Assembly (NCBI RefSeq): GCF_051903065.1
Contig: NZ_CP178438.1
Length of the DNA: 64,000 nucleotides
DNA from: Escherichia coli
Lineage (GTDB): Bacteria; Pseudomonadota; Gammaproteobacteria; Enterobacterales; Enterobacteriaceae
Direction: 5' to 3' (one strand)
Position numbers and translations under genes: made by a program. The notes below the pieces were generated by a model. It did not search any database. It saw only the letters and a list, made by a program, of their open reading frames with translations, and was not told the DNA's origin. Within the stretch, counting starts at the first letter, position 1. Each line of letters starts with the position of its first letter. Shown here piece after piece: positions 9,916-47,852 of the stretch.

Positions 9916-12162
9916 CTATAACCCTCCGCGAATCAGCCCGCCCATGCCGCGACGCTCCATAAAGGCTGCAACCTGATGGCGAACTTCGGTCGCCAGTTGC
10001 GCTTCCAGACTACGCTGCGCAAGATTTTCTGCTTCGGCATAATCAATGCGCCGCAGCAGGTATTTTACCCGCGCTACAGAACGTCCGTTCATAGACAGAT
10101 GGCGATACCCAAGCCCAATGAGGATTGCCACGCACATGGGATCGCCCGCCATTTCACCGCACAAACGGAGATCGATTCCATGTATTTCCGCTTCCCGGGC
10201 GATCATCGCCAGAGCTCGTAACATTGCAGGATGAAGACTGTCATAAATGTTCGCCACCCGGGTATTGTTGCGATCAACGGCCAGAATGTATTGAGTCAGA
10301 TCGTTGGTGCCAACAGAGATGAAATCGACCCGCTTTGCCAGATGCGGCAGCATAAATACCATTGACGGCACTTCCAGCATGATGCCGATACGTGGTTTGG
10401 GAATTTCGTAACCGATCATCTCCTCGACTTCACGTCCGGCACGTTCAATCAGGCGGCGTGCTTCGTCAACTTCATCGAGGCTTGTGACCATCGGCAACAG
10501 AATATTCAGGTTGCCCGTAGCGGCATTAGCACGCAGCATCGCCCGCACCTGGATCAAGAAGATCTCCGGCTGATCGAGCGTAATGCGAATCCCACGCCAA
10601 CCCAGGCATGGATTCTCTTCGCTGATCGGCATGTAAGGCAGCTGCTTATCTGCTCCGACATCCAGCGTACGCAAGGTGACGGGTTTATCATTGAACATTT
10701 GCAGCATCCCCTGATACTGCGCCACCTGTTCTTCTTCCGACGGAAAACCACTTTGCAGCATGAATGGGATTTCAGTGCGATAAAGACCGATGCCATCAAT
10801 ACGGCTGCCCAGTTTTTCTTCATGTTCCGGGCTTAAACCAGCATTGAGCATGACTTTTATACGCTCACCGCTTTTTAACTGCGCGGGTAAATTGACGTCA
10901 TCTTCCGCCAGACGGCTAAGCTCAATCTCTTCACTAATTAGCCGCTGATATTCTTGCAGCAGTACCGGCTCCGGATCGACCAGCAATTCACCGCGATAGC
11001 CATCGACGATCAGCGTCCGACGATGCAGCACCGAAGGCTGAATATCCGCGCCCATCACGGTAGGGATCCCCAGCGCACGTACCATGATCGCAGCATGGGA
11101 GTTGGCTGCGCCATCTCGCACGACAACACCGACTAAGCGATCCTGGGGCAGCTCAGCAAGAGTTGTCGCTGACAGTTCATCTGCCACCAGAATGAAACGT
11201 TCCGGCCAGGCGTTCGGCCCTTGATTAGCGTCATCAAGATGAAACAGCAATCGCTGACCCAGCGCACGTAAATCGCCAGCCCGCTCTTTGAGATAGTTAT
11301 CGCTTAGCGCGGCAAACTGTTCGGCAAATTTTTCAATGACCGTTTTTACCGCCCATTCTGCCACCGAGCCTTTATCAACCTCGGCAAACAATTCGCGACG
11401 CAGCCGGGTGTCCGAAAGCAGGTGCGAGTAAAGATCGAAAATAGCCGCCGTTTCTTTTTGTGCACCGGCGGCAAAGCGTTTGCTGTAGCGGCGAAACTCG
11501 TTTGCCGCTTCTTCCAGCGCCCCGGTCAGTCGTTCGCGTTCCAGAGCCGGATCCAGCGTTGATGCCTGATACACCTGTTCCATTAAAGGTAACGTGGCAT
11601 CCTGCCAGCCTTCGGCAATCGCCACACCAGGTGCTGCCGGTAATGCGCGGATTCGCGTCTGGCGATATTGCCCAAACAAGGCAGTCAACTGCGACTGAGA
11701 AAGAATCGCTGCCATCTGGGTGGCAAGCGTCACCAGGAAGGATTCTTCACTTTCGTCATACTGGCGCAACTCTCGTTGCTGTACCACCAGTACACCAAGC
11801 AACTGGCGACGTTGAATAATTGGTACGCCTAAAAACGCGCGAAAACGTTCTTCTTTTACGGAGGGGATGTATTTGAAGCTGGGGTGCTTTTGCGCATCTG
11901 CAAGGTTTATCGGTTCCGCCAGCCTGCCAACCAGGCCGACGATCCCTTCATCAAACGCGAGCGTTACAGTGCGACCGCGTGGTTTTTTCAGCCCCCGGGT
12001 CGCCATCAGGTAGTAACAACGTCGATCATGATCGGCCAGGTAGACCGAACAGACCTCGGTATCCATCGCAAGACAGATGTCGGTAACCAGAATATTTAAC
12101 GCCTCATTCAGGCGTGGTGCGCTGGCTACCTTTTCGACTATTTCGCGCAGGCGAGTGAGCAT
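9916..12162 (-). CDS. ptsP: PTS-Ntr enzyme I (PEP-protein phosphotransferase with GAF domain)
   Basis: 748-aa ORF; enzyme I-like C-terminal region. Confidence 0.95.
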   Translation of the reverse strand: MLTRLREIVEKVASAPRLNEALNILVTDICLAMDTEVCSVYLADHDRRCYYLMATRGLKKPRGRTVTLAFDEGIVGLVGRLAEPINLADAQKHPSFKYIPSVKEERFRAFLGVPIIQRRQLLGVLVVQQRELRQYDESEESFLVTLATQMAAILSQSQLTALFGQYRQTRIRALPAAPGVAIAEGWQDATLPLMEQVYQASTLDPALERERLTGALEEAANEFRRYSKRFAAGAQKETAAIFDLYSHLLSDTRLRRELFAEVDKGSVAEWAVKTVIEKFAEQFAALSDNYLKERAGDLRALGQRLLFHLDDANQGPNAWPERFILVADELSATTLAELPQDRLVGVVVRDGAANSHAAIMVRALGIPTVMGADIQPSVLHRRTLIVDGYRGELLVDPEPVLLQEYQRLISEEIELSRLAEDDVNLPAQLKSGERIKVMLNAGLSPEHEEKLGSRIDGIGLYRTEIPFMLQSGFPSEEEQVAQYQGMLQMFNDKPVTLRTLDVGADKQLPYMPISEENPCLGWRGIRITLDQPEIFLIQVRAMLRANAATGNLNILLPMVTSLDEVDEARRLIERAGREVEEMIGYEIPKPRIGIMLEVPSMVFMLPHLAKRVDFISVGTNDLTQYILAVDRNNTRVANIYDSLHPAMLRALAMIAREAEIHGIDLRLCGEMAGDPMCVAILIGLGYRHLSMNGRSVARVKYLLRRIDYAEAENLAQRSLEAQLATEVRHQVAAFMERRGMGGLIRGGL

Positions 12163-12174
12163 AATTGGCGTGAC

Positions 12175-12705
12175 TTAACCTCTTTTACGTCGATAAGCAG
12201 ATGCGTTTTGTGGTTTTGGCGTATTTTCCTGCAGTGACATCACCACGCTCGCGAACTCTTTCATTACCCTACGGTAGACATCACGTTTAAATGACACCAC
12301 CTGTCTGACCGGATACCAGTAACTTACCCATCGCCAGCCGTCAAACTCTGGTGTACTGCTGGTTTGCATATTGATTTCTGCATCGCCGCTCACCAGCTGC
12401 AAGAGAAACCATTTTTGTTTTTGGCCGATACAAACCGGCTTCGTGTCCCAACGCACCAAACGTTTCGGTAATTTGTAGCGCAACCAGTTACGCGTTGAAG
12501 CAAGGATTCGAACGTCTTTGCGGCTTAATCCTACTTCTTCAAACAATTCACGGTACATCGCCTGCTCTGCGGATTCTCCGGGGTTAATTCCGCCTTGCGG
12601 AAATTGCCAGGAGTGCTGACCAAATCGCCGGGCCCACATTACCTGCCCCTGGCGATTACAAATCACGATACCTACGTTTGGGCGGTAGCCATCGTCATCA
12701 ATCAC
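12175..12705 (-). CDS. rppH: RNA pyrophosphohydrolase (Nudix)
   Basis: 176-aa ORF with Nudix box [22 protein letters not shown]. Confidence 0.95.
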
Positions 12706-12779
12706 CGGACTACCTCAATATAAAGCTTTATATACGAATGATTGTTTCATACTCCAGGAAGACGGTAAACCACTCTCTG

Positions 12780-13230
12780 CAGGGCATTACACACTAATAA
12801 CAATTGAATAACTCACAGTTATGTGCAGAGTTATAAACAGAGGAAGGGGTGGATAGCCGTTTTTATTCACCTTTTCTGTGGATAGAGTTGTGAAGAACTA
12901 CGGAATTACTACGGGAAAACCCGGAGCATTCTGAATAAGCCCGATATAGACATTTTAAAATATTCATTATCAGTCAATGCATTACATGTAATTTAAGTAA
13001 TGAAAAAGAGTAATTCGTGACCCAGGTCACACCTCTCATTTACGGGTTGGCGAAAGATCAACCAATGCCGTATTTATCCACAGAATGTGCCACTAAGTTA
13101 AGCACTGAACCACTAAAAACTGGAGTTTCGTCGCACGTCAAGGCTGTAAATGGAAACAGTAGTGGAGGTTTTTCACAGTTATCCCAGCTTTCTGTGGATA
13201 ACATGGTGTAAGATCCTGTTTATTTTCAGT
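12780..13230. promoter_or_regulatory. DARS2: DARS2 (DnaA-reactivating sequence 2) with DnaA boxes
   Basis: Long rppH-mutH intergenic region. Perfect DnaA boxes TTATCCACA (about 13074-13082) and TGTGGATAA (about 13193-13201), plus near-consensus TGTGGATAG (about 12877-12885) and GGTGGATAG (about 12849-12857). Location matches the reported DARS2 site between ygdP/rppH and mutH. Confidence 0.6.
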
Positions 13231-13389
13231 GACCAGATTTGGAAAACCCGTTGCAGTGTTGCGCAACTCGATTACCGGCAACCTAAAAAGCAATATAAAT
13301 CAGAGAATTGAACAACGCATGTGGAAAAAGTTACACTGCGAATATTCGGCACATAATTGCTGTTTGTTTTTTAACCAAGGTATCATGAC

Positions 13390-14079
13390 ATGTCCCAACC
13401 TCGCCCACTGCTCTCTCCTCCCGAAACTGAAGAACAGTTGTTAGCGCAAGCACAGCAACTTTCTGGTTATACATTGGGAGAACTGGCGGCACTTGCCGGG
13501 CTGGTTACGCCAGAGAATTTAAAACGCGATAAGGGCTGGATTGGCGTGTTACTGGAGATCTGGCTAGGTGCCAGCGCAGGGAGTAAACCTGAGCAAGATT
13601 TTGCTGCTCTGGGCGTGGAACTTAAAACTATCCCTGTGGATAGTCTTGGTCGTCCGCTGGAAACAACATTCGTTTGTGTTGCCCCGTTAACGGGCAATAG
13701 CGGGGTGACCTGGGAAACCAGCCACGTGCGCCACAAACTCAAACGCGTACTGTGGATACCGGTTGAAGGCGAGCGCAGCATCCCGCTGGCGCAGCGTCGC
13801 GTTGGATCACCGTTGCTGTGGAGCCCGAATGAAGAGGAAGACCGGCAGCTACGCGAAGACTGGGAAGAATTAATGGATATGATTGTTCTCGGTCAGGTTG
13901 AGCGGATTACCGCTCGTCACGGGGAGTATTTACAGATACGACCGAAAGCAGCGAATGCGAAAGCGCTTACCGAAGCCATTGGTGCCCGGGGCGAACGGAT
14001 TCTGACGCTGCCGCGCGGCTTTTATTTGAAGAAAAATTTCACCAGTGCGCTGCTGGCCCGTCATTTTCTGATCCAGTAG
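13390..14079 (+). CDS. mutH: Methyl-directed mismatch repair endonuclease MutH
   Basis: 229-aa [36 protein letters not shown]. Confidence 0.95.
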
Positions 14080-14147
14080 CCATCGCTTTGACCTGCCGCT
14101 TTCCGGGCATATAATTACCGCTTCATTTTTTTGGCAGGGCTTTTTAG

Positions 14148-14861
14148 ATGTTATTTGCATGGATAACCGATCCTAACGCCTGGCTTGCGCTCGGTACGCT
14201 GACGCTGCTGGAGATCGTTCTTGGGATCGACAATATTATTTTCCTTTCTCTGGTGGTGGCAAAGCTTCCCACAGCACAACGTGCTCATGCGCGCCGTCTG
14301 GGGTTGGCGGGAGCCATGGTTATGCGTCTGGCGCTGCTGGCATCAATCGCCTGGGTTACGCGCCTGACAAATCCGCTTTTTACAATATTCAGTCAGGAAA
14401 TTTCTGCCCGTGACTTGATTCTGCTTCTGGGTGGCTTGTTCCTTATCTGGAAAGCCAGCAAGGAAATCCACGAATCCATTGAAGGTGAAGAAGAAGGGCT
14501 GAAAACACGCGTTTCATCATTCCTCGGCGCTATCGTGCAGATTATGCTGCTGGATATTATCTTCAGCCTCGATTCAGTGATTACCGCTGTGGGTCTGTCA
14601 GATCACCTGTTTATTATGATGGCAGCCGTGGTGATTGCCGTAGGCGTGATGATGTTCGCCGCGCGCTCGATTGGTGATTTTGTCGAACGCCATCCTTCGG
14701 TAAAAATGCTGGCTCTCTCTTTCCTGATTCTGGTGGGCTTTACCCTGATTCTGGAAAGTTTCGACATCCACGTACCGAAAGGTTACATCTACTTCGCGAT
14801 GTTCTTCTCTATTGCGGTTGAAAGCCTCAACCTGATTCGCAACAAAAAGAATCCGCTCTGA
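14148..14861 (+). CDS. ygdQ: TerC-family inner membrane protein
   Basis: 237-aa polytopic membrane ORF following mutH. Confidence 0.85.
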
Positions 14862-19829: not shown

Positions 19830-19917
19830 AAAAAAAACCTGCGCATCCGCGCAGGTTGGTGCAAGAGACAGGGTACGAAGAGCGTACCGAATAATCTCAC
19901 CAATCAATACCTCTGGG
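19830..19917 (-). ncRNA. omrA: OmrA small regulatory RNA
   Basis: Minus-strand sequence CCCAGAGGTATTGATTGGTGAGATTATTCGG...CTGCGCGGATGCGCAGG followed by a U-run (terminator hairpin); matches OmrA in the aas-galR intergenic region. Confidence 0.9.
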
Positions 19918-20031: not shown

Positions 20032-20114
20032 AAAAAAAAACCTGCGCATCTGCGCAGGCTGGTGTAATTCATGTGCTCAACCCGAAGTTGACTTCACCTA
20101 TCAATACCTCTGGG
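20032..20114 (-). ncRNA. omrB: OmrB small regulatory RNA
   Basis: Minus-strand CCCAGAGGTATTGATAGGTGAAGTCAACTTCGGGTTGAGCACATGAATTACACCAGCCTGCGCAGATGCGCAGG plus U-run; tandem paralogue of omrA sharing 5' and 3' ends. Confidence 0.9.
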
Positions 20115-47778: not shown

Positions 47779-47852
47779 TGGAGCGGGCGAAGGGAATCGA
47801 ACCCTCGTATAGAGCTTGGGAAGCTCTCGTTCTACCATTGAACTACGCCCGC
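47779..47852 (-). tRNA. glyU: tRNA-Gly (anticodon CCC)
   Basis: Reverse complement reads GCGGGCGTAGTTCAATGGTAGAACGAGAGCTTCCCAAGCTCTATACGAGGGTTCGATTCCCTTCGCCCGCTCCA; cloverleaf with CCA end. Confidence 0.95.

What the first reader, a model, noticed from the sequence alone, without database searches (positions are those of the whole stretch)
12780..13230. DnaA-box cluster in the rppH-mutH intergenic region (DARS2)
An unusually long (about 680 bp) non-coding gap contains two perfect DnaA boxes in opposite orientation and further near-consensus boxes. This matches the reported position of DARS2, a chromosomal element that regenerates ATP-DnaA with IHF and Fis. Small ORFs listed here by the track (13017-13211, 13229-13444) are probably not genes.
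Basis: partly seen in the sequence, partly recalled or inferred. Interest (0 to 1): 0.4.

Follow-up and report, generated by a model that had tools for sequence, protein, structure and literature searches.

The report
DARS2, the known DnaA-reactivating sequence
The DnaA-box cluster between rppH and mutH is DARS2, the already well-studied E. coli DNA element that recharges the replication initiator DnaA with ATP, so the finding is correct but not new.

Summary
Observation and interpretation both hold. The window is E. coli. The rppH-mutH gap (12706-13389, 684 bp) is 681/684 identical to MG1655. Published primers place the 455-bp DARS2 at 12840-13294, with one SNP in a spacer. The gap has 10 DnaA boxes (at most 1 mismatch) against 2.5 expected and 4 perfect against 0.14; no shuffle of 1000 reached either count.

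One correction. They lie in the regulatory or dispensable part. The catalytic core is the three one-mismatch boxes I-III (12863-12897), with I and II head-to-head across 5 bp. IBS1-2, FBS1, FBS2-5 and FBS6 all map exactly.

No small ORF here, including RefSeq's ygdT, stays intact across 79 Enterobacteriaceae species. There is no RNA signal.

A side result: the best-conserved stretch is a roughly 125-bp block (13126-13249) in the "dispensable" right half, not the minimal DARS2. It holds a LexA-type box 228 bp before mutH, the position reported for Salmonella. It also holds box VI flanked by two weak boxes in DARS-core geometry, at the strongest published DnaA ChIP peak. Its role is unassigned.

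Verdict: already known; low interest.

The parts
12706..13389 (.). rppH-mutH intergenic gap, 684 bp
   Evidence: ORF list and MG1655 annotation. It is 681/684 identical to MG1655. It covers at least 80% of the query at 95% identity or more in 5421 of 5426 complete E. coli genomes. Gap length is 678-688 bp in 78 of 79 Enterobacteriaceae species.
12840..13294 (.). Published full-length DARS2 (455 bp)
   Evidence: Exact matches of primers MutH-4 (12840-12858) and MutH-2 (13276-13294) from Kasho 2014 suppl. Table S1. One SNP against MG1655, at 12995.
12840..13072 (.). Minimal DARS2 (delta-Right construct)
   Evidence: Primer MutH-11 maps to 13052-13072. Kasho 2014 defines delta-Right as the minimal active DARS2.
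12863..12871 (+). Core DnaA box I, TTATTCACC (1 mismatch)
   Evidence: Motif scan. It lies inside the delta-Core deletion 12863-12897. It varies only at base 9 across species.
12877..12885 (-). Core DnaA box II, CTATCCACA (1 mismatch), head-to-head with box I across a 5-bp spacer
   Evidence: This matches the published description: 5-bp space, and one mismatch in DARS2 box II.
12889..12897 (-). Core DnaA box III, TTCTTCACA, 3 bp after box II, same orientation
   Evidence: The geometry is the same 9-5-9-3-9 as the DARS1 core in MG1655 (L002 1608-1642).
12930..12938 (-). DnaA box IV, TTATTCAGA
   Evidence: Scan. The substitution primers Ksh-30 and Ksh-31 flank it.
12956..12984 (.). IHF sites IBS1 (12956-12968) and IBS2 (12972-12984), 3 bp apart, beside the PciI site at 12984-12989
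   Evidence: Exact match of the IBS1-2 unit in oligo insIBS-10U. These are the only two matches (at most 1 mismatch) to WATCAANNNNTTR in DARS2. The PciI overlap is stated in PMC11724364.
13008..13022 (.). Fis site FBS1, GAGTAATTCGTGACC (perfect Fis consensus)
   Evidence: Scan. The FIS-1U oligo maps to 13000-13030.
13044..13095 (.). FBS2-5 cluster, including the crucial 21-mer (about 13052-13073, FBS2-3), low-affinity boxes V-a/b/c and an invariant GATC at 13056
   Evidence: Exact match of the FBS2-5-f oligo. The 21-mer is bounded by MutH-17/MutH-11 and MutH-24/MutH-25. GATC is kept in 79/79 species.
13074..13082 (+).
   Evidence: The subDnaA box V oligos identify it. Identical in 79/79 species. 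Its role is described in PMC8682772.
13142..13161 (.). LexA (SOS) box-like 20-mer GGCTGTAAATGGAAACAGTA (CTGT-N8-ACAG), 228 bp before the mutH ATG
   Evidence: Approximate heterology index 11.2, third lowest in the window. CTG and CAG are kept in 79/79 species. Salmonella mutH has an SOS box 228 bp from its ATG with HI 12.99 and 3.6-fold induction. LexA binds the mutH promoter in V. parahaemolyticus.
13179..13213 (.).
   Evidence: It matches the DARS1 core at 25/35 and the DARS2 core at 23/35 positions. I' is identical in 78/79 species, VI in 79/79 and III' in 76/79. VI plus III' is the 'double DnaA box' under the strongest DARS2 ChIP-seq peak (213x) in PMC11317965.
13126..13249 (.). Near-invariant block of about 125 bp in the right half of DARS2
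   Evidence: Per-base conservation over 79 species. It is also kept in the more distant metagenome locus L175. The neutral baseline, 4-fold sites of mutH, is about 40% identical.
13250..13264 (.). Fis site FBS6, GTTGCAGTGTTGCGC
   Evidence: Exact match. Poorly conserved across species, 0.44.
13058..13204 (-). ygdT (b4610), a 48-codon ORF annotated in RefSeq; probably not a gene
   Evidence: Annotation. It is intact in only 22 of 79 species; the rest have in-frame stops or a lost start codon.
13330..13357 (+). Sigma-70-like promoter match upstream of mutH (GTTACA-16-CATAAT)
   Evidence: Consensus scan only. One match was found against 1.9 expected, so this is weak evidence.

Best explanation
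This is DARS2, a non-coding chromosomal element of E. coli that converts inactive ADP-DnaA back to ATP-DnaA before each round of replication initiation. The mechanism below comes from the literature for a sequence that differs by one base, in a spacer; it was not tested here. ADP-DnaA binds core boxes I-III. The protomers on the oppositely oriented boxes I and II meet head-to-head through their AAA+ domains, and the protomer on box III stabilises them head-to-tail. This releases ADP. Apo-DnaA leaves and binds ATP. At DARS2 the reaction needs IHF on IBS1-2, which bends the DNA sharply, and Fis on FBS2-3. This ties activity to the pre-initiation stage and to exponential growth. When ATP-DnaA peaks, it oligomerises from the perfect box V over low-affinity boxes V-a to V-c and displaces Fis, which is a negative feedback. 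From the sequence and comparisons made here, the right half of the 455-bp element appears to be a second module. It is more strongly conserved than the IHF/Fis region. It contains a LexA-type operator for mutH and a box VI-centred DnaA site with core-like geometry. Its function is inferred, not shown.
For: Locus and identity: the genes are ptsP, rppH, mutH, ygdQ. The gap is 681/684 identical to MG1655, with one SNP inside DARS2, in a spacer. Exact mapping of published primers and oligos defines the 455-bp element, the delta-Core deletion, the 21-mer, IBS1-2, FBS1, FBS2-5, FBS6 and boxes IV, V and VI. Core architecture: I(+)-5 bp-II(-)-3 bp-III(-), the same as DARS1 in MG1655, 24/35 identical, as described in PMC6868365 and PMC8682772. 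The box enrichment is far beyond chance. Conservation: core, box V and box VI are near-invariant in 79 Enterobacteriaceae species while 4-fold sites of mutH are about 40% identical. The element is present in 5421/5426 complete E. coli genomes. In vivo DnaA occupancy at three DARS2 peaks is published. The mechanism is taken from PMC4245941, PMC6868365, PMC8682772 and PMC11724364.
Against: Nothing contradicts the identification. Caveats: function was not and cannot be assayed here. IBS1-2 (0.5-0.6) and the FBS2-3 21-mer (0.73) are only moderately conserved at the base level across genera, although their consensus-defining bases largely persist. The Fis consensus is too degenerate for its matches to carry statistical weight (11 per 455 bp expected at 1 mismatch).
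Confidence: 0.97

Rival explanations
1. The right half (about 13126-13249) is mainly the regulatory region of mutH, with a LexA operator and DnaA sites controlling a DNA-damage-inducible mutH promoter. This would parallel the uvrB promoter region that houses DARS1. On this reading it is not part of the DnaA-reactivation machinery. It complements rather than replaces DARS2.
For: A CTGT-N8-ACAG box lies at 13142-13161, with CTG and CAG kept in 79/79 species. The variation falls only at the centre and at the base before CAG. It has the same 228-bp distance to the ATG as the Salmonella mutH SOS box (HI 12.99, 3.6-fold induction by nalidixic acid). LexA binds the mutH promoter in V. parahaemolyticus by EMSA. 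The right half and boxes IV-VI are dispensable for DARS2 activity in plasmid assays. DARS1 likewise lies 290 bp upstream of the uvrB LexA box, in the same orientation.
Against: My approximate HI of about 11 is marginal, and four other 20-mers in the 64-kb window score 12.0 or lower by chance. No convincing promoter overlaps the box. I found no evidence of LexA binding here in E. coli in the papers I could read. A LexA box explains 20 bp, not 125 bp of invariance.
Confidence: 0.35
2. The region encodes a small protein: ygdT on the - strand, or one of the + strand ORFs at 13017-13211 or 13229-13444.
For: RefSeq annotates ygdT. The ORFs exist in this strain.
Against: ORFs intact in only 22/79 (ygdT), 28/79 and 1/79 species, with in-frame stops and lost start codons. 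Conservation is blockwise at all three codon positions and runs past the ORF ends. The conserved 'peptide' motifs are simply DnaA boxes V and VI read in frame.
Confidence: 0.03
3. The conserved block is a small RNA or a structured 5' leader.
For: High conservation of a non-coding stretch. An inverted repeat at 13178-13202 can form a hairpin.
Against: No Rfam match at E<=1 in the intergenic gap; the one hit in 11500-14500 (E=0.96) lies inside mutH. Folding z-scores are -0.29 (+) and -1.29 (-). None of 28 and none of 18 predicted pairs show compensatory changes in 26 species. The hairpin arms are the head-to-head DnaA boxes themselves.
Confidence: 0.03
4. A chance cluster of DnaA-box-like words in AT-rich intergenic DNA.
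For: Single boxes with one mismatch are common: 130 in 64 kb.
Against: No shuffle of 1000 reached the observed counts. The match to the published element is exact. The boxes are invariant across genera.
Confidence: 0.005

Closest known systems
DARS2 of E. coli K-12 MG1655 (Fujimitsu 2009; Kasho 2014; Miyoshi 2021; Kasho 2025)
   Same: Same locus, and 454/455 bases identical. Every published site (boxes I-VI, IBS1-2, FBS1-6, the 21-mer) maps by exact match.
   Different: One SNP, A for T at window 12995, in the spacer between IBS2 and FBS1. No functional site is touched.
DARS1 (bioD-uvrB intergenic region)
   Same: The same three-box core geometry, I(+)-5-II(-)-3-III(-), 24/35 identical. It lies upstream of a DNA-repair gene with a LexA box downstream of the core, in the same orientation.
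   Different: DARS1 box II is a perfect consensus. DARS1 needs no IHF or Fis and is about 100 bp long. It is a different locus and is not in this window.
datA
   Same: A DnaA-box cluster with an IHF site that modulates the nucleotide state of DnaA, with comparable DnaA ChIP occupancy.
   Different: The reaction is the opposite one (it stimulates DnaA-ATP hydrolysis). The boxes are arranged head-to-tail, there is no Fis requirement, and the locus differs.
oriC DnaA-oligomerisation region
   Same: High- and low-affinity DnaA boxes together with IHF and Fis sites.
   Different: There is no duplex-unwinding element here. oriC boxes are arranged head-to-tail within each half. DARS2 does not initiate replication.
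LexA (SOS) operators, e.g. the uvrB box and the Salmonella mutH box
   Same: The CTGT-N8-ACAG core at 13142-13161, at the same distance to mutH as the reported Salmonella box.
   Different: The score is marginal, the site lies far (228 bp) from the start codon, and LexA binding in E. coli is not shown.

Membership tests
DARS2 | Lies in the rppH (ygpD/nudH)-mutH intergenic region | tested here: met
   ORFs and MG1655 annotation. PMC11317965 places DARS2 upstream of mutH.
DARS2 | Sequence equals the 455-bp fragment amplified with primers MutH-4 and MutH-2 | tested here: met
   The two primers match exactly, 455 bp apart (12840-13294). The interval is 454/455 identical to MG1655.
DARS2 | Core of three DnaA boxes; I and II in opposite orientation with a 5-bp spacer; II with one mismatch; III in the same orientation as II | tested here: met
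   Boxes at 12863-12871 (+), 12877-12885 (-) and 12889-12897 (-). The description is in PMC6868365. They lie inside the delta-Core deletion.
DARS2 | Two 13-mer IHF consensus sites (IBS1-2) 3 bp apart, next to a PciI site | tested here: met
   Sites at 12956-12968 and 12972-12984, each with 1 mismatch; PciI at 12984-12989.
DARS2 | Fis sites FBS2-3 within a crucial 21-mer, adjoining a perfect DnaA box V | tested here: met
   Exact match of the FBS2-5 oligo at 13044-13095. The 21-mer is at about 13052-13073 and box V at 13074-13082.
DARS2 | Promotes IHF- and Fis-dependent ADP release from DnaA and raises ATP-DnaA in vivo | not testable with these tools
   Published for MG1655 DARS2, which differs from this sequence by one spacer base.
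DARS2 | Core and regulatory sites conserved in related gamma-proteobacteria at the same genomic position | tested here: met
   79 Enterobacteriaceae species keep rppH-gap-mutH synteny. Core conservation is 0.94-1.0, box V 1.0, IBS 0.5-0.6 and the 21-mer 0.73. Taxa beyond the family were not reached, apart from locus L175.
DARS2 | Conserved relative distance from oriC | not testable with these tools
   Only 64 kb of the chromosome is available.
LexA (SOS) box | CTGT-N8-ACAG palindrome (20-mer TACTG(TA)5CAGTA) | tested here: met
   GGCTGTAAATGGAAACAGTA at 13142-13161. CTG and CAG are invariant in 79/79 species.
LexA (SOS) box | Heterology index in the range of LexA-binding sites | tested here: inconclusive
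   HI is about 11.2 with a matrix built from 24 boxes recalled from memory; only the uvrB box was checked against sequence. It ranks third in the window, but four other 20-mers score 12.0 or lower. The published HI of the Salmonella orthologue is 12.99.
LexA (SOS) box | Bound by LexA, and the adjacent gene is induced by DNA damage | not testable with these tools
   Reported for Salmonella (induction) and V. parahaemolyticus (EMSA). I found no E. coli data.

The most novel reading that the evidence does not exclude
The roughly 125-bp near-invariant block in the 'dispensable' right half of DARS2 (13126-13249) is a separate functional module. It would combine a LexA operator with a second DnaA-box triplet (I'-VI-III') that has the exact 9-5-9-3-9 geometry of the DARS core and carries the strongest DnaA occupancy of the locus. 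It could couple mutH expression or the SOS response to the DnaA cycle. Alternatively it could act as a second, conditionally active reactivation or titration core that survives in the standard delta-Core 'DARS2 deletion' strains.
Probability: 0.3. Interest if true: 0.5.

Novelty: already known. Interest (0 to 1): 0.18.

Why it matters
DARS2 is the main element that regenerates ATP-DnaA and so sets the timing of chromosome replication in E. coli. Recognising it in raw sequence shows that the scan can recover a real regulatory DNA element that is neither a gene nor an RNA. It adds no new biology. The side result deserves a specialist's look. The part of the locus under the strongest purifying selection across Enterobacteriaceae is not the published minimal DARS2. 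It is a block that published assays called dispensable. That block combines a LexA-type box, invariant GATC sites and a core-like DnaA triplet, and it remains in the delta-Core strains commonly used as 'DARS2 deletions'.

Tried and rejected
(1) Coding explanation. I tested five ORFs across 79 species, and all are broken in most of them.

(2) RNA explanation. Rfam at E<=1, single-sequence folding with shuffles, and consensus folding on both strands all gave nothing.

(3) Reaching taxa beyond Enterobacteriaceae. The genome scan returned only the 80 closest MutH loci, at 81-98% identity. The word-index protein search listed only close relatives. Three MutH representatives at 54-59% identity were either on contigs under 1 kb or not next to rppH.

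(4) Metagenome scan with the generic core pattern TTATNCAC-N6-TGTGGATA-N4-TGTG. Most hits were unrelated contigs carrying perfect head-to-head box pairs. It also returned about ten DARS1 loci and one useful DARS2 locus, L175.

(5) Fis consensus statistics. The motif is too degenerate to be informative.

(6) Promoter search for mutH near the LexA-like box. The only match is a weak one at 13330-13357.

(7) Papers. Fujimitsu 2009 and Wade 2005 are not held. The 2025 paper's supplement is not held either.

(8) Similarity of the second triplet to the core. At 23/35 it is the best non-self match in the window, but only one position above the next best (22), so the sequence score alone is weak. The argument rests on geometry and conservation.

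Full report
What is there. The window is E. coli chromosome. ptsP (9916-12162, -), rppH (12175-12705, -), mutH (13390-14079, +), ygdQ, ygdR and tas follow in the MG1655 order and at the same relative positions. The rppH-mutH gap is 684 bp. It is 681/684 identical to MG1655. At least 80% of it, at 95% identity or more, is present in 5421 of 5426 complete E. coli genomes. Apart from the annotated mini-ORF ygdT, it is the longest gap between genes in the first 50 kb.

The observation. Perfect TTATCCACA boxes sit at 13074-13082 (+) and 13193-13201 (-). Against TTWTNCACA, the gap has 10 boxes with at most one mismatch and 4 perfect ones. In 1000 dinucleotide-preserving shuffles of the gap the means were 2.46 and 0.14, and no shuffle reached either observed count. 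The densest 455-bp stretch for DnaA boxes in the whole 64 kb is this cluster.

Identification. I mapped primers and oligonucleotides printed in the DARS2 papers onto the window by exact match.
- MutH-4 and MutH-2 bound 12840-13294, which is exactly the published 455 bp.
- The delta-Core primers leave out 12863-12897.
- The minimal delta-Right construct ends at 13072.
- The crucial 21-mer is at about 13052-13073.
- The IBS1-2 unit is at 12956-12984, touching the PciI site at 12984-12989 that the 2025 paper uses as a probe for IHF binding.
- The FBS1 oligo is at 13000-13030, with a perfect Fis consensus at 13008-13022.
- The FBS2-5 oligo is at 13044-13095, and FBS6 is at 13250-13264.
- The substitution primers identify box IV (12930-12938, -), box V (13074-13082, +) and box VI (13193-13201, -).
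The only difference from MG1655 inside DARS2 is one base, at 12995, in a spacer.

Core anatomy. Box I is TTATTCACC (12863-12871, +). A 5-bp spacer follows, then box II CTATCCACA (12877-12885, -), a 3-bp spacer, and box III TTCTTCACA (12889-12897, -). This is the arrangement described in the literature: I and II opposed, 5 bp apart, with DARS2 box II carrying one mismatch. It has the same geometry as the DARS1 core, which I read from the MG1655 bioD-uvrB gap (L002 1608-1642; 24 of 35 positions identical). Box V is the published negative-feedback site. Boxes IV-VI were dispensable for stimulating initiation from a plasmid. The catalytic core consists of the three one-mismatch boxes at the left end.

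Mechanism (from the papers, not tested here). ADP-DnaA assembles on boxes I-III. The head-to-head contact of the AAA+ domains on I and II, which depends on Gln208, releases ADP. Box III supports the complex head-to-tail through Leu290. Apo-DnaA then rebinds ATP. DARS2 needs IHF at IBS1-2 and Fis at FBS2-3, and negative supercoiling stabilises IHF binding. IHF binding is cell-cycle dependent and Fis binding is growth-phase dependent. ATP-DnaA oligomerises from box V over boxes V-a to V-c and evicts Fis.

Conservation. A genome scan with MutH returned 80 Enterobacteriaceae species loci at 81-98% MutH identity. Of these, 79 keep rppH divergently upstream, and the gap is 678-688 bp in 78 of them. 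Four-fold degenerate sites of mutH are a median 40% identical to E. coli. The gap averages 0.68. Core boxes score 0.94-0.97, with an invariant I-II spacer. Boxes V and VI are identical in 79/79 species. IBS1 and IBS2 score 0.50 and 0.59, the 21-mer 0.73, and FBS1 and FBS6 about 0.45.

Small ORFs and RNA. No ORF is conserved as an ORF. The counts of species with an intact ORF are 28/79 for 13017-13211 (+), 1/79 for 13229-13444 (+) and 22/79 for ygdT (-). In-frame stops and lost start codons are common. The apparent peptide conservation of ygdT is boxes V and VI read in frame. Rfam gives no match in the intergenic gap at E<=1; the one hit in 11500-14500 (E=0.96) lies inside mutH. Folding z-scores are -0.29 and -1.29. 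Consensus folds over 26 species show no compensatory pair.

What stood out beyond the finding. The longest near-invariant stretch of the gap is 13126-13249, in the right half that published assays found dispensable. It persists in a more distant metagenome locus with MutH 78% identical. It has three sub-blocks.
- B1 (13134-13162) contains GGCTGTAAATGGAAACAGTA, a CTGT-N8-ACAG LexA-type box. Its CTG and CAG are invariant in 79/79 species. Variation falls only at the centre and at the base before CAG. Its end lies 228 bp before the mutH ATG. That is the distance given for the single SOS box of Salmonella mutH, which has HI 12.99 and 3.6-fold induction by nalidixic acid. LexA binds the mutH promoter of V. 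parahaemolyticus in EMSA. My approximate heterology index is 11.2, which is marginal: four other 20-mers in the window score 12.0 or lower.
- B2-B3 (13176-13236) reads TTATCCCAG-CTTTC-TGTGGATAA-CAT-GGTGTAAGA. That is a weak box, 5 bp, perfect box VI, 3 bp, and a weak box, which is the geometry of the DARS cores. It is 25/35 identical to the DARS1 core and 23/35 to the DARS2 core. The three boxes are kept in 78, 79 and 76 of 79 species.
- A published DnaA ChIP-seq study lists three DARS2 peaks. The strongest (213-fold, on a par with oriC and datA) lies at a coordinate that maps to about window 13229. That study assigns it the "double DnaA box" formed by box VI and the weak box after it.
So DnaA binding there is documented. 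What the block does is not. Two GATC sites (13056 in FBS2-3, 13212 in B3) are invariant in 79/79 species.

Parallel with DARS1. In MG1655 the DARS1 core lies 290 bp upstream of the uvrB LexA box. The DARS2 core lies 244 bp upstream of the mutH LexA-type box. Both have the same orientation relative to the repair gene. This is an observation and carries no tested meaning.

Verdict. The finding is a correct recognition of a well-characterised element, so it is already known and of low interest in itself. The most novel reading left open is that the right-half block is a distinct LexA/DnaA module. I give that about 0.3.

Noticed in passing
window 13126-13249: This is the most conserved stretch of the rppH-mutH gap, about 125 bp and near-invariant in 79 Enterobacteriaceae species. 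It lies in the right half of DARS2, which published assays found dispensable. It is more conserved than IBS1-2 and FBS2-3.
   Followed up: partly
window 13142-13161: A LexA-type SOS box (CTGT-N8-ACAG) lies inside DARS2, 228 bp before the mutH ATG. This is the same distance as the SOS box reported for Salmonella mutH. I found no E. coli binding data.
   Followed up: partly
window 13179-13213: A weak box, 5 bp, perfect box VI, 3 bp, and a weak box reproduce the 9-5-9-3-9 geometry of the DARS1 and DARS2 cores. The non-consensus bases are themselves invariant across genera. The site stays intact in delta-Core 'DARS2 deletion' strains.
   Followed up: partly
window 13058-13204 (-): RefSeq gene ygdT (b4610, 48 aa) runs from box VI to box V. 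It is interrupted by stops or lacks a start codon in 57 of 79 species, so it is probably a spurious annotation.
   Followed up: yes
window 12717-12752 (-), with conserved DNA at 12740-12775: A mini-ORF with a Shine-Dalgarno sequence lies upstream of rppH (MKQSFVYKALY* in this strain). The start codon plus KQS is kept in all 79 species, while the tail varies over 5-14 codons. Its stop overlaps the rppH ribosome-binding site. It may be a leader ORF or just a conserved promoter/UTR element.
   Followed up: partly
window 13056-13059 and 13212-13215: The only two GATC (Dam) sites of the gap are invariant in 79/79 species. One lies inside FBS2-3 and the other inside the conserved right-half block.
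   Followed up: no
window 12914-12922 and 13241-13249; L002 1648-1656: GGAAAACCC recurs 51 bp after the start of box I and 62 bp after the start of box I'. DARS1 has AGAAAACAC at 40 bp. The offsets step by 11 bp. The first copy is fairly conserved (52/79), the second less so (16/79). This may be coincidence.
   Followed up: no
window 13016-13030: Inverted repeat GTGAC...GTCAC overlapping FBS1. The arms are invariant across genera and the centre is variable. It also scores as a terminator-like hairpin on the - strand.
   Followed up: no
window 12796-12842: Conserved blocks (AATAACAATTGAATAACTCACAG and GTTATAAACAGAG) lie just left of the published DARS2 boundary. They may be rppH promoter elements.
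   Followed up: no
Most carry perfect TTATCCACA-N5-TGTGGATAA pairs followed by TGTG and lie in contexts without mutH, rppH, bioD or uvrB. Head-to-head DnaA-box triplets therefore seem widespread outside Enterobacteriaceae. Their contexts were not examined.
   Followed up: no
window 19830-19917, 20033-20114, 47782-47852: OmrA and OmrB sRNAs and a tRNA were found by Rfam. The tRNA lies about 5 kb further along than glyU does in MG1655, so this strain carries extra DNA in the ygeF-ygeQ (ETT2) region relative to K-12.
   Followed up: no
PMC11317965 Table 1: The DARS2 ChIP-seq peak coordinates are labelled NC_000913.2. They fit the locus only in NC_000913.3 numbering, where 2969124, 2969306 and 2969501 map to window 12852, 13034 and 13229.
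   Followed up: partly
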